Below are positions 3,001 to 6,000 of a DNA stretch of 64,000 nucleotides, one piece after another. Positions within the stretch are counted from its first letter, which is position 1; each line of letters begins with the position of its first letter. The position numbers were made by a program. Source of the DNA: Escherichia coli O127:H6 str. E2348/69 (lineage in GTDB: Bacteria > Pseudomonadota > Gammaproteobacteria > Enterobacterales > Enterobacteriaceae); NCBI RefSeq assembly GCF_000026545.1, contig NC_011601.1, one strand, 5' to 3'.

Positions 3001-6000
3001 GGCGGTGGAGATTATGGACACCGCGTTTATGAACTCTATCAGCAAATGGAAAAAGTGGGACGAAATGCTTGCGTCACCGTGGTTCACCGTTTACCCAGAC
3101 GTAGGCAACCTCAGCGCCTGGGGCAATGATGTTCCCGCCGAACTGAAACTGGGTATCGACCGTATCGCCGCCATCCATCTGAAAGACACTCAACCCGTTA
3201 CCGAACATAGCCCCGGACAGTTCCGCGATGTGCCGTTTGGCGAAGGCTGTGTCGATTTTGTTGGCATCTTCAAAACGCTGCATGAGCTGAACTATCGCGG
3301 ATCATTTCTGATTGAAATGTGGACCGAAAAAGCCAAAGAGCCGGTGCTGGAGATTATTCAGGCGCGGCGCTGGATTGAAGCGCGTATGCAGGAGGCCGGA
3401 TTTATATGTTAGAGCAACTGAAAGCTGACGTGCTGGCGGCAAACCTGGCGCTTCCCGTTCATCATCTGGTGACGTTCACCTGGGGCAATGTCAGCGCGAT
3501 GGACGAAACGCGGCAATGGATGGTGATTAAGCCTTCCGGCGTTGAGTATGAGGTAATGACCGCCGACGATATGGTGGTGGTTGAGATAGCCAGCGGCAAG
3601 GTGGTGGAAGGCAGCAAAAAGCCCTCTTCCGACACGCCAACGCATCTGGCGCTTTACCGTCGCTTTGCGGAGATTGGCGGCATAGTGCATACCCACTCGC
3701 GCCACGCCACCATCTGGTCGCAGGCCGGACTTGATCTCCCCGCCTGGGGCACTACTCACGCCGATTATTTTTACGGAGCCATCCCCTGCACGCGCCTGAT
3801 GACCGCAGAAGAGATCAACGGCGAGTATGAATACCAGACCGGCGAAGTGATCATTAAAACCTTCGAAGAGCGTGGGTTGAACCCGGCACAAATCCCAGCG
3901 GTACTGGTGCATTCTCACGGCCCGTTCGCCTGGGGAAAAAATGCCGCCGATGCGGTGCATAACGCCGTGGTACTGGAAGAGTGCGCCTATATGGGTCTGT
4001 TCTCGCGCCAGCTTGCGCCACAGCGCCCTGCGATGCAAAACGAACTGCTGGATAAGCACTACCTGCGTAAGCATGGGGCCAATGCCTATTACGGGCAGTA
4101 GCCATACCTGATAGTGCCCGGCAATACACGCCGGGCAGCCTTTCACATCAGAACAGCCCCAACGGTTTATCCGAGTAGCTCACCAGCAGGCACTTGGTTT
4201 GCTGGTAATGCTCAAGCATCATTTTGTGGGTTTCGCGGCCAATGCCTGATTGTTTGTAGCCGCCAAACGCCGCATGTGCCGGGTAAGCGTGATAACAGTT
4301 GGTCCACACGCGCCCGGCCTGAATGCCGCGCCCCATCTTATAGGCCAGATTACCGTTGCGGCTCCAGACGCCCGCGCCCAGACCATATTGCGTATCGTTC
4401 GCCAGCTCCAGCGCTTCTTCCATCGTTTTGAAGGTGGTTACCGCCAGCACCGGGCCAAAAATCTCCTCCTGGAACACGCGCATATTGTTCTGACCAAACA
4501 GAATCGTCGGTTCGAGGTAGTAGCCGTCTTTCAGTTCGCCTTCCAGCAGCTTGCGTCGCCCGCCGGTGAGCACATCAGCGCCCTCTTTTTTACCGATATC
4601 AATGTAGTTGAGGATGGTTTCCAGTTGCCCGTGAGAAACCTGCGCGCCCATTTGCGTCACGCTGTCGAGCGGGTTACCGCTGCGAATGCTTTCGACACGG
4701 CGGATAGCGCGTTCCATAAAGCGTTCGTAGATAGACTCCTGCACTAAAGCACGGCTTGGACAGGTGCAAACTTCGCCCTGGTTAAAGGCAAACAGTGCAA
4801 AGCCTTCCAGCGCTTTATCGAAAAAGGCATCTTCTTCATCCATCACATCAGCAAAGAAGATATTTGGCGATTTGCCGCCCAGCTCCAGCGTCACCGGAAT
4901 AATGTTTTGCGTGGCGTATTGCATAATTTGTTGGCCCACTTCCGTTGAGCCAGTAAACGCCACTTTGGCGATGCGTTTCGAGGTCGCCAGATATTCGCCA
5001 ATTTCCCCACCTGCGCCATTGACCACGTTCACCACCCCTGGCGGCAGTAAATCACCGACGATTTCCATTAGCAGCAGTACAGAAAGCGGAGTAAGACGTG
5101 CGGGTTTCAGCACCACACAGTTGCCCGCCGCCAGAGCGGGAGCCATTTTCCAGCTCGCCATCAGCAGCGGGAAGTTCCACGGGATAATCTGCCCCACCAC
5201 GCCTAACGGCTCATGGAAATGATAGGCCACGGTTTCGCTATCAATTTCACTGATCCCACCTTCCTGCGCCCGAATACACGAGGCAAAATAGCGAAAATGA
5301 TCAATCGCCAGCGGCACGTCGGCAGCACTGGTTTCGCGAATGGGTTTACCGTTATCCCAGGTTTCTGCCGTCGCTAAAAGTTCAAGGTTTTGTTCCATTC
5401 GATCGGCAATCTTAAACAGAATCGCCGCACGATCCTGCACCGAGGTGTGCGCCCATTTATCTTTCACTTTGTGCGCAGCATCCAGCGCCAGATCGATGTC
5501 TCGTTTGCCCGAAGACGCCACTTCGCACAGTAGCTGCCCGGTCACCGGCGTCAGGTTCTGGTAATACTCGCCGTCGGCAGGGGCTACCCATTCGCCGCCA
5601 ATAAAGTTGTCGTAGCGGGCTTTTAATTTGAGGGGGAAACCATACTCGCCGGGCTTAATCTGTGCTGAAGGGGGATTATTGGTCATGATCGTCTCCTTGC
5701 GGTGTGAGGTATAACAAGGGTAGACGTGACTGGCGAAATCTTCGCCAGTCGGTGACAGCTTTACGACGGCTATCACGAATTTACGGGCAAGGGTTACAGC
5801 GGATAATGCGCGAAGTACACGGCTTGCTGGTCATTAATTTTCTTCTCTTGCGCAAACCCTTCTTTAACAATTGTCCGTAAATCAGCTCGAGCCGTATTAT
5901 CAGAGACGCCCAAGCTCGCGCTAATTTCAGCAACTGTGTACTCTTTCCCCGGATTGGCGAGCATCACATTCAGGAGCGTTACCTGGCGCGGATTCAGGCG

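What the first reader, a model, noticed from the sequence alone, without database searches (positions are those of the whole stretch)
4099..4150. sgbE directly abuts aldB: the yiaT-yiaW block is absent
In the K-12 order as I recall it, four genes (yiaT, yiaU, yiaV, yiaW) separate sgbE from aldB. Here the sgbE and aldB stop codons are 46 bp apart and convergent, sharing one GC hairpin (4116-4136). This marks a clean deletion or insertion boundary and a strain-specific difference.
Basis: partly seen in the sequence, partly recalled or inferred. Interest (0 to 1): 0.3.

Follow-up and report, generated by a model that had tools for sequence, protein, structure and literature searches.

The report
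Old deletion scar between sgbE and aldB
In this E. coli E2348/69 window the sgbE and aldB genes are separated by only 46 bases because about 9 kb of optional genes has been lost, leaving a 24-base stub of a toxin-antitoxin gene (hicB) as the hairpin. This is an ordinary, old and widespread variant of a known kind, not a strain-specific event.

Summary
sgbE (3406-4101, +) and aldB (4148-5686, -) converge, 46 bp lie between their stop codons, and a GC hairpin sits at 4115-4137. K-12 does have yiaT-yiaW there, in a 4191-bp interval.

- **The locus has many alleles.** The fullest E. coli allele reads sgbE | AraC-MFS-GH127 | yiaTUVW | hyp104 | hicB-hicA | aldB (9267 bp). Every other allele examined maps onto it as a deletion; one (SCU-102) also carries an extra gene.
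- **The boundary is not clean.** Window 4116-4139 is 24/24 identical to the last codons of hicB. In intact hicAB loci this sequence is the stem-loop of the operon's terminator. So the hairpin is a gene relic and the junction is a deletion scar.
- **The breakpoints differ in how well they are explained.** The right breakpoint fits a CAGCTT microhomology. The left 14 nt have no identified source.
- **It is not strain-specific.** The junction occurs in 479-480 of 5426 complete E. coli genomes (S88, APEC O1, Nissle 1917, the type strain). It also occurs in Escherichia albertii, whose flanks are about 7% diverged.
- **The missing genes are not elsewhere.** E2348/69 has no yiaT-W, AraC-MFS-GH127 or hicB copy anywhere else in its genome.

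Overall this is an ordinary gene-content polymorphism. The one mildly notable point is that the spacer is unusually well conserved.

The parts
3406..4101 (+). sgbE (RefSeq label araD: L-ribulose-5-phosphate 4-epimerase), last gene of the yiaK-sgbE operon. Its stop codon is TAG here, but TAA in K-12 and in B2 strain 5-1.
4102..4147 (.). 46-bp spacer between the two convergent stop codons. This is the minimal allele of the sgbE-aldB variable segment.
   Evidence: The same spacer is found in 479-480 of 5426 E. coli genomes and in E. albertii.
4102..4115 (.). 14 nt of unidentified origin (CCATACCTGATAGT), at or next to the left breakpoint. It is polymorphic among genomes that carry the junction: 4105 A/G and 4111 T/G. 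E. albertii has G and G.
4116..4139 (-). Relic of the hicB 3' coding end (codons A128-G135 of the 136-aa HicB antitoxin, read on the - strand). It is 24/24 identical to intact hicB. Against strain SCU-102 the match extends to 4113-4139 with 26/27 identical.
   Evidence: The C-terminal helix is conserved in solved HicB structures.
4115..4137 (.). GC-rich hairpin with an 8-bp stem and 7-nt loop. It is the stem-loop of the former hicAB terminator, now without its T-rich tail.
   Evidence: No terminator is called here. The same hairpin is called terminator-like in the intact hicAB context of L006.
4136..4147 (.). Right junction and native sequence next to aldB. CAGC|CTTTCACA matches the CAGCTTTTCACATCA found next to aldB in hicAB-bearing contig L014. 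It overlaps the CAGCTT of hicB, which points to a microhomology deletion.
4148..5686 (-). aldB, aldehyde dehydrogenase B (512 aa), convergent with sgbE.

Best explanation
The 46-bp sgbE-aldB spacer is the most reduced allele of a variable chromosomal segment with many alleles.

**What was lost (shown).** The fullest E. coli allele holds 9267 bp between the two stop codons. It contains an AraC-regulator/MFS-transporter/GH127 beta-L-arabinofuranosidase module, yiaT-yiaU-yiaV-yiaW, a 104-aa membrane ORF and a hicB-hicA toxin-antitoxin pair. In the window all of this is gone except 24 (perhaps 27) nt from the 3' end of hicB.

**What the hairpin is (shown).** Those bases are the GC stem-loop that serves as the terminator hairpin of the hicAB operon in intact loci. 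The 'shared hairpin' is therefore a gene relic and the junction is a deletion scar, not an empty ancestral site.

**How the deletions happened (inferred).** The right-hand deletion removed most of hicB, hicA and the sequence near aldB. It most likely ran between two CAGCTT direct repeats, one in hicB and one 10 nt from the aldB stop. The left-hand event removed everything from the sgbE stop codon to the hicB stop codon. It left 14 nt that I cannot assign.

**Age (shown).** The allele is old. It is shared by several lineages that I know to be phylogroup B2 (ST95-type, ST73-type, EPEC E2348/69, the type strain) with 1.4-1.9% flank divergence, and by E. albertii with about 7% flank divergence.

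**Function (inferred).** The retained hairpin probably still serves as a 3'-end structure for the two convergent transcripts, either as a weak terminator or as a barrier to exonucleases. The spacer is better conserved than neighbouring synonymous sites, which supports this. It lacks a U-tract, so it is not a canonical intrinsic terminator.
For: - **Strain and annotation.** Searches give the identity to E2348/69 and the gene annotation.
- **K-12.** Searches show the K-12 interval of 4191 bp containing yiaT-W.
- **Alternative alleles.** Searches show seven alternative alleles, including the full one (L009).
- **Deletion map.** maps each allele onto the full one, as blocks retained in the same order (the only extra is SCU-102's type I restriction-like gene). 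The window keeps only full-allele positions 12164-12187, at 24/24 identity. The K-12 pseudogenes ysaC and ysaD are AraC and GH127 fragments. K-12 also keeps a decayed hicB 3' relic.
- **Alignment.** Searches give the 24/24 identity and the alignments.
- **Protein families.** One search places HicB in PF15919 and HicA in PF07927.
- **The tail belongs to HicB.** One search shows the C-terminal residues encoded by the hairpin (…FLAEAARRVL) aligning with solved HicB structures 6G1N and 4P78. They are part of the gene itself.
- **Terminator in context.** calls the same hairpin, followed by TTTAATCT, as a terminator-like site downstream of intact hicAB.
- **Right breakpoint.** One search shows the aldB-proximal sequence CAGCTTTTCACATCA in hicAB-bearing contig L014. 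A deletion between the CAGCTT repeats reproduces the window junction with one mismatch.
- **No copies elsewhere.** One search shows that all three E2348/69 chromosomes and all 60 best junction-bearing genomes have a single matching place. None of the eight probes for the missing genes matched elsewhere. The whole collection has no matches on plasmids.
- **Age.** One search shows SNPs in the scar and 1.4-1.9% flank divergence among bearers. Searches show the same junction in E. albertii, with flanks at 92.8% identity and mismatches up to 3 nt from the sgbE stop.
- **Conservation.** One search finds 0 of 46 spacer differences between E. albertii and B2 variant L010, against 14-21% at flanking third codon positions (P about 7e-5).
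Against: - The 14 nt at 4102-4115 have no detectable source, so the left breakpoint mechanism is not explained.
- The proposed microhomology junction carries one mismatch (C at 4140 where T is expected).
- The minimal allele cannot be derived by a single deletion from the nearest B2 allele, which has AraC-MFS-GH127 and no hicB relic.
- The outgroup E. albertii has the minimal allele, so the order of events within Escherichia is unresolved.
- No terminator is called at the hairpin on either strand because there is no T-run. No Rfam family matches.
- The function of the hairpin is inferred from conservation alone.
Confidence: 0.8

Rival explanations
1. Ancestral empty site. sgbE and aldB were originally adjacent, sharing a terminator hairpin. 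The blocks seen in other strains (yiaT-W, AraC-MFS-GH127, hicAB) are islands inserted later next to that hairpin.
For: The outgroup species E. albertii has the same minimal arrangement in all contigs seen. Parsimony on a two-species tree would therefore favour 'minimal = ancestral'.
Against: - The hairpin is 24/24 identical to codons 128-135 of hicB.
- Those residues belong to the C-terminal helix conserved in HicB proteins of Burkholderia and Yersinia, so the sequence is part of the gene.
- Strains carrying the blocks do not hold the other 22 nt of the spacer beside them, and show no target duplication.
- Other alleles also carry relics that show deletion: ysaC/ysaD and a decayed hicB stub in K-12, and an 84-nt hicB stub in Ec73552.
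Confidence: 0.07
2. One reading: a recent, strain-specific clean deletion of yiaT-yiaW from a K-12-like arrangement in E2348/69.
For: K-12 has yiaT-W in this interval and E2348/69 does not.
Against: - The junction is shared by 479-480 genomes from several lineages and by E. albertii.
- The scar itself carries SNPs.
- The 35 nt at 4101-4135 do not align to the K-12 interval.
- K-12's own hicB relic has a different breakpoint and a 12-bp internal deletion, so it cannot be the parent.
Confidence: 0.02
3. The scar is the same, but the allele is shared between E. albertii and B2 E. coli through horizontal exchange (homologous replacement), not through descent from their common ancestor.
For: - The 46-bp spacer is identical between the species while flanking third codon positions differ by 14-21%.
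- The 24-nt relic is still identical to intact E. coli hicB.
- The adjacent yiaK-sgbE operon shows an abnormal deep split. B2 versus K-12 is 89.9-92% identical, as far apart as either is from E. albertii. This suggests past imports at this locus.
Against: - No tract of raised identity surrounds the junction. Mismatches occur at 4080, 4083, 4086 and 4098 on one side and at 4163 and 4178 on the other.
- An exchanged tract would therefore have to be 64 nt or shorter, which is less than homologous recombination normally needs.
- B2 is barely closer to E. albertii than K-12 is (92.8-93.1% versus 92.4%).
Confidence: 0.2

Closest known systems
Variable (plastic) segments of the E. coli chromosome, where gene blocks come and go between conserved core genes
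   Same: The flanks are fixed core genes (sgbE, aldB). Between them lie alternative sets of optional modules in different lineages, and the smaller alleles carry relics of lost genes. In 5426 genomes, 3728 have yiaT-W, 2313 have AraC-MFS-GH127, 506 have hicAB and 479-480 have the minimal allele.
   Different: No tRNA, integrase, IS element or direct-repeat att site is involved at the window junction. The variation looks like successive deletions, possibly with allele replacement, rather than gain of a mobile island.
HicAB type II toxin-antitoxin loci (HicB: PF15919; solved structures 6G1N, 4P78)
   Same: Window 4116-4139 is identical to the last codons of a hicB gene that occupies this same locus, in the same orientation, in 506 E. 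coli genomes.
   Different: Only 24-27 nt remain. There is no ORF, no hicA and no promoter, so this is a relic and not a TA system. It is also a different locus from the K-12 hicAB (yncN/ydcQ); that location is from my own knowledge.
Rho-independent (intrinsic) terminators, including bidirectional ones shared by convergent genes
   Same: A stable GC-rich stem-loop lies between two convergent stop codons. In its original hicAB context the same stem-loop is followed by a T-rich tail and is called terminator-like.
   Different: In the window there is no T-run after the stem on either strand (+: GCCTTTCA; -: CTATCAGG). The consensus scan calls nothing.
REP/BIME elements, which follow aldB in K-12 and in B2 strain 5-1
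   Same: Both are short palindromic structures in the 3' region of aldB that could stabilise mRNA 3' ends.
   Different: The window hairpin has no similarity to the REP copies seen downstream of aldB in K-12, L003 or L007. It derives from hicB coding sequence.

Membership tests
Clean deletion of the yiaT-yiaW block relative to K-12 | The sequence on both sides of the junction continues directly into K-12 sequence, with nothing extra in between. | tested here: not met
   Homology to K-12 ends at 4100 and resumes at 4147, or at about 4136 in a looser alignment. The bases in between have no K-12 counterpart at those borders.
Clean deletion of the yiaT-yiaW block relative to K-12 | yiaT, yiaU, yiaV and yiaW are absent from the interval and from the rest of the genome. 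| tested here: met
   tblastn against the window finds only the paralogues yibH/yibI; the 150-nt probes for yiaT/U/V/W give no second matching place in any of the three E2348/69 chromosomes, and there are no plasmid matches.
Deletion scar carrying a gene relic | The junction contains a fragment that is collinear, in the same orientation and highly identical to an intact gene at the same locus in other genomes. | tested here: met
   24/24 identity to the hicB 3' end in L006, L007 and L009, and 26/27 in L008. The encoded residues are part of the conserved HicB C-terminal helix.
Deletion scar carrying a gene relic | Breakpoints are explained by microhomology or repeats. | tested here: inconclusive
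   The right breakpoint fits CAGCTT repeats with one mismatch. The left breakpoint is unexplained.
HicAB toxin-antitoxin system | Intact hicA and hicB ORFs. | tested here: not met
   No HicA or HicB tblastn hit in the window. Only 24-27 nt of hicB remain.
Intrinsic (Rho-independent) terminator | GC-rich stem-loop. | tested here: met
   8-bp stem with 7 G-C pairs. Folding energy is -18.7 (+) and -22.0 (-) kcal/mol, with z = -3.76 and -2.47.
Intrinsic (Rho-independent) terminator | A run of T/U directly after the stem. | tested here: not met
   No terminator-like sites in 3900-4400 on either strand. The T-rich tail present in the intact hicAB context was lost.
Intrinsic (Rho-independent) terminator | Transcripts end at the site. 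| not testable with these tools
   This needs Term-seq or 3' RACE.
Mobile genomic island insertion site | An integrase, transposase or tRNA gene, and flanking direct repeats. | tested here: not met
   None is annotated in any of the eight alleles at the window junction. An IS903B copy occurs only sporadically inside yiaU.

The most novel reading that the evidence does not exclude
The stem-loop of a lost hicAB operon's terminator has been co-opted as the only 3'-end structure shared by the convergent sgb and aldB transcripts. It would have been held unchanged by selection since before E. coli B2 and E. albertii diverged. The 46-bp spacer is 46/46 identical across species while neighbouring synonymous sites differ by 14-21%. 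By contrast, the equivalent relic in K-12 and O157, which lies away from any gene end, has decayed.
Probability: 0.3. Interest if true: 0.35.

Novelty: new member of a known kind. Interest (0 to 1): 0.2.

Why it matters
It matters little outside comparative genomics of E. coli.

- It shows that the sgbE-aldB interval is a hotspot with many alleles, not a simple presence/absence difference from K-12.
- It explains the K-12 pseudogenes ysaC and ysaD, and an unannotated hicB stub in K-12, as relics of the same ancestral segment.
- It shows that E2348/69, together with ST95-type and ST73-type strains, the E. coli type strain and E. albertii, lacks the putative beta-L-arabinofuranoside utilisation module, the YiaT-W proteins and this HicAB pair.
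- If the conserved relic hairpin is functional, it would be a small, tidy example of a gene fragment reused as a 3'-end element.

Tried and rejected
1. **First chimeric probe search.** Genomes with the full allele outranked E2348/69, so it could not answer the question asked. It did reveal the full allele. A redesign with shorter probes worked.
2. **Source of the left 14 nt (4102-4115).** A local alignment to the sequence left of the hicB stop was no better than shuffles. A search allowing 4 mismatches across all fetched loci found only the junction itself.
3. **Inverted version of another hairpin.** I considered whether the window hairpin is a flipped copy of the different hairpin that follows sgbE in K-12 and strain 5-1 (GCCGGGGC…GCCCCGGC). 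I rejected this once the 24/24 match to hicB was found.
4. **Terminator scan and Rfam.** Neither found anything.
5. **Literature.** Only two papers mention both yiaT and aldB. By title and abstract neither concerns this polymorphism; I did not read them.
6. **Recent transfer between E. albertii and B2.** I looked for a tract of raised identity around the junction and found none.
7. **Recombination import in strain 5-1.** I looked for K-12-like sequence near the junction in the B2 strain that carries AraC-MFS-GH127. There is none; its flanks stay 99-100% of the B2 type.
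Full report
**Observation.** The window is 100% identical to E. coli E2348/69, an O127:H6 EPEC strain.
- sgbE, which RefSeq labels araD (L-ribulose-5-phosphate 4-epimerase), runs 3406-4101 on the + strand and ends in TAG.
- aldB runs 4148-5686 on the - strand.
- The spacer 4102-4147 is 46 bp.
- The hairpin is TGCCCGGC / AATACAC / GCCGGGCA at 4115-4137. It folds far better than shuffled sequence: -18.7 kcal/mol and z = -3.76 on the + strand, -22.0 kcal/mol and z = -2.47 on the - strand.
- K-12 MG1655 carries sgbE | ysaC' ysaD' | yiaT yiaU yiaV yiaW | aldB, with 4191 bp between the stops.

**The junction is not a clean K-12 deletion.** Homology to K-12 stops at 4100, inside the stop codon (TAG here, TAA in K-12). 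It resumes at 4147, or at about 4136 in a looser alignment. The bases in between do not occur at either edge of the K-12 interval.

**The locus has many alleles.** Annotated regions from other complete genomes show these arrangements:

| Genome | Content between sgbE and aldB |
|---|---|
| Strains 5-1 and AVS0662 (flanks 98.5-98.8% identical to the window) | AraC, MFS, GH127 (frameshifted); no yiaT-W |
| O157:H7 | AraC-MFS-GH127 and yiaTUVW; the yiaK-sgbE operon is deleted |
| EC1 | AraC-MFS-GH127 and hicB hicA |
| SCU-102 | as EC1, plus a type I restriction-like gene |
| Ec73552 | AraC-MFS-GH127, yiaTUVW, hyp104 and a hicB stub |
| 2020CK-00188 (L009) | everything: AraC, MFS, GH127, yiaT U V W, hyp104, hicB hicA (9267 bp) |

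Pfam confirms the family assignments: HTH_18/AraC, MFS_2, GH127, HicB_lk_antitox, HicA_toxin and HSDR_N. Aligned to the full allele, every other allele is made of the same blocks in the same order with some missing; SCU-102's type I restriction-like gene is the one addition. The K-12 pseudogenes ysaC and ysaD are the AraC 3' end and a GH127 fragment. K-12 and O157 also keep a decayed stub of hyp104 and the hicB 3' end, at L002 9714-9823.

**What the hairpin is.** A 51-nt query across the junction matched 479 genomes in full. In about 520 further genomes it matched only over the hairpin, and there the match overlaps the 3' end of an annotated HicB antitoxin gene at this same locus.
- Window 4116-4139 is 24/24 identical to hicB codons 128-135 (…A A R R V L P G, read on the - strand) in L006, L007 and L009. 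It is 26/27 identical over 4113-4139 in L008.
- These residues belong to the C-terminal helix (RSAFLAEAARRVL). That helix aligns with the solved HicB proteins of Burkholderia pseudomallei (6G1N) and Yersinia pestis (4P78). The sequence is therefore part of hicB itself, not a local hairpin that hicB happened to read into.
- In the intact hicAB context, the consensus scan calls exactly this stem-loop, followed by TTTAATCT, as a terminator-like site for the hicAB transcript.
- In the window the stem-loop survives but the T-rich tail is gone, and no terminator is called on either strand. Rfam has no match.

**Breakpoints.**
- *Right side.* hicB reads …GGGCAGCTTCCGCC…. The sequence next to aldB in a hicAB-bearing contig (L014) reads …GACCAGCTTTTCACATCA(aldB stop). 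A deletion between the two CAGCTT copies gives GGGCAGCTTTTCACATCA. The window has GGGCAGCCTTTCACATCA, which is one mismatch. This is an inference, but a good fit.
- *Left side.* The join falls at the sgbE stop codon. The next 14 nt (CCATACCTGATAGT) match nothing I could find, so this part is unexplained.

The hicB stubs of K-12, O157 and Ec73552 end at a different breakpoint, about 84 nt into hicB. hicAB was therefore lost at least twice independently.

**Are the missing genes elsewhere?** Within the window, only the paralogues yibH/yibI (12571-14069; 77% and 75% amino-acid identity to YiaV/YiaW) are found. For the whole genome I used a chimeric query: the 1.7-kb junction plus, on the opposite strand, 150-nt probes for yiaT, yiaU, yiaV, yiaW, AraC, MFS, GH127 and hicB. 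The three E2348/69 chromosomes and all 60 best junction-bearing genomes show a single matching place. No place in the entire collection lies on a plasmid. The blocks are therefore truly absent, at megablast sensitivity.

**Distribution and age.** Counts among 5426 complete E. coli genomes:

| Feature | Genomes |
|---|---|
| yiaT-W, at least 80% covered | 3728 |
| AraC-MFS-GH127, at least 80% covered | 2313 |
| Intact hicAB | 506 |
| Minimal junction | 479-480 |

- Junction bearers include S88, APEC O1, IMT5155, Nissle 1917 and the type strain ATCC 11775. From my own knowledge these are phylogroup B2 lineages.
- Bearers differ from the window by 1.4-1.9% over 6 kb. The scar itself is polymorphic at 4105 (A/G) and 4111 (T/G).
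- An exact 22-mer scan of one genome per species found the hairpin in only one named genome, the E. albertii type strain, and in one E. coli-like contig binned with a Collinsella metagenome-assembled genome.
- E. albertii has the very same sgbE | 46 bp | aldB | Fic arrangement, in the type strain and in all 14 contigs that encode its SgbE protein.
- Its flanks are 92.8% identical to the window over 3450 ungapped bases. Mismatches run up to 3 nt from the sgbE stop and resume 13 nt into aldB.

This is an old allele shared across two species, not a strain-specific event.

**Conservation of the spacer.** Between E. albertii and B2 variant L010 the spacer shows 0 of 46 differences. Third codon positions of the flanking genes differ at 14% (sgbE) and 21% (aldB), giving a binomial P of about 7e-5. 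E2348/69 itself differs at 2 of 46 positions. The relic is also still identical to intact hicB, whereas the K-12 and O157 stub, which is not next to a gene end, has lost half the stem. The simplest reading is purifying selection on the hairpin as a 3'-end structure for the two convergent transcripts. A very short conversion tract cannot be excluded. Function has not been tested.

**What remains open.** The order of events is unresolved.
- The minimal allele has a hicB relic and no AraC module. The nearest B2 alternative has the AraC module and no hicB relic. Neither can be derived from the other by one deletion, even though their flanks are 99-100% identical right up to the junction.
- The adjacent yiaK-sgbE operon is abnormally diverged between B2 and K-12: 89.9% over 5.8 kb, against about 97% for aldB and yiaY-selB. 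E. albertii is about equally distant from both.
- The AraC-MFS-GH127 module shows ordinary divergence between phylogroups, 97.3%.

Together these hint at past allele replacement by recombination at this locus, but the tools here cannot resolve it.

**Verdict.** The feature is real and correctly described. It is an ordinary gene-content polymorphism at a variable spot of the chromosome. The added value of this check is that the junction is a deletion scar whose hairpin is a hicB terminator relic, and that the allele is old and widespread. I found no paper describing it. Interest is low.

Noticed in passing
window 5794-7089 (- strand); indel 5800-7166: A 431-aa Fic-family gene (PF02661) sits between aldB and yiaY. 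K-12 lacks it: window 5800-7166 (1367 bp) has no counterpart there, and both sides map to the same K-12 base. It is present in B2 strains, O157:H7 and E. albertii, and absent from K-12 and the hicAB-type alleles. This is a second presence/absence polymorphism right next to the first.
   Followed up: partly
window 1-4100 and L001 1021-6801 (yiaN-sgbE): The yiaK-sgbE operon of E2348/69 is only 89.9% identical to K-12 over 5.8 kb (92% for the sgb part). aldB and yiaY-selB are 96.8-96.9% identical. E. albertii is about 91-93% from both alleles. This is a deep allelic split, as large as the distance between the two species.
   Followed up: partly
L002 9714-9823 (NC_000913.3 about 3754713-3754822), between yiaW and aldB: K-12 carries an unannotated, decayed relic of the hyp104 3' end and the hicB 3' end (84% identical to the full allele, with a 12-bp deletion in the hairpin). 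The annotated K-12 pseudogenes ysaC and ysaD are fragments of the AraC regulator and the GH127 gene of the full allele.
   Followed up: yes
window 12571-14069 (- strand): yibH/yibI are paralogues of the missing yiaV/yiaW (77% and 75% amino-acid identity). They are the only YiaV/W-like genes in the window.
   Followed up: partly
L015 388-2154 (E. albertii contig): In E. albertii, lyxK and sgbH are called as one 588-aa ORF (FGGY_N plus OMPdecase), which is an apparent gene fusion. One contig (L016) has aldB split into two ORFs.
   Followed up: no
L014 (JAIJJM010000854.1): A 1.2-kb contig binned as a Collinsella sp. metagenome-assembled genome carries E. coli-type GH127 3' end, hicB, hicA and aldB 3' end. 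It is most likely an Escherichia contig that was binned wrongly.
   Followed up: no
L005 465-605 (O157:H7 strain Z570): O157:H7 has lost the whole yiaK-sgbE operon, leaving only a fragment of an IclR-family regulator gene (by its position probably yiaJ) next to the AraC gene. This is yet another deletion allele at the same locus.
   Followed up: no
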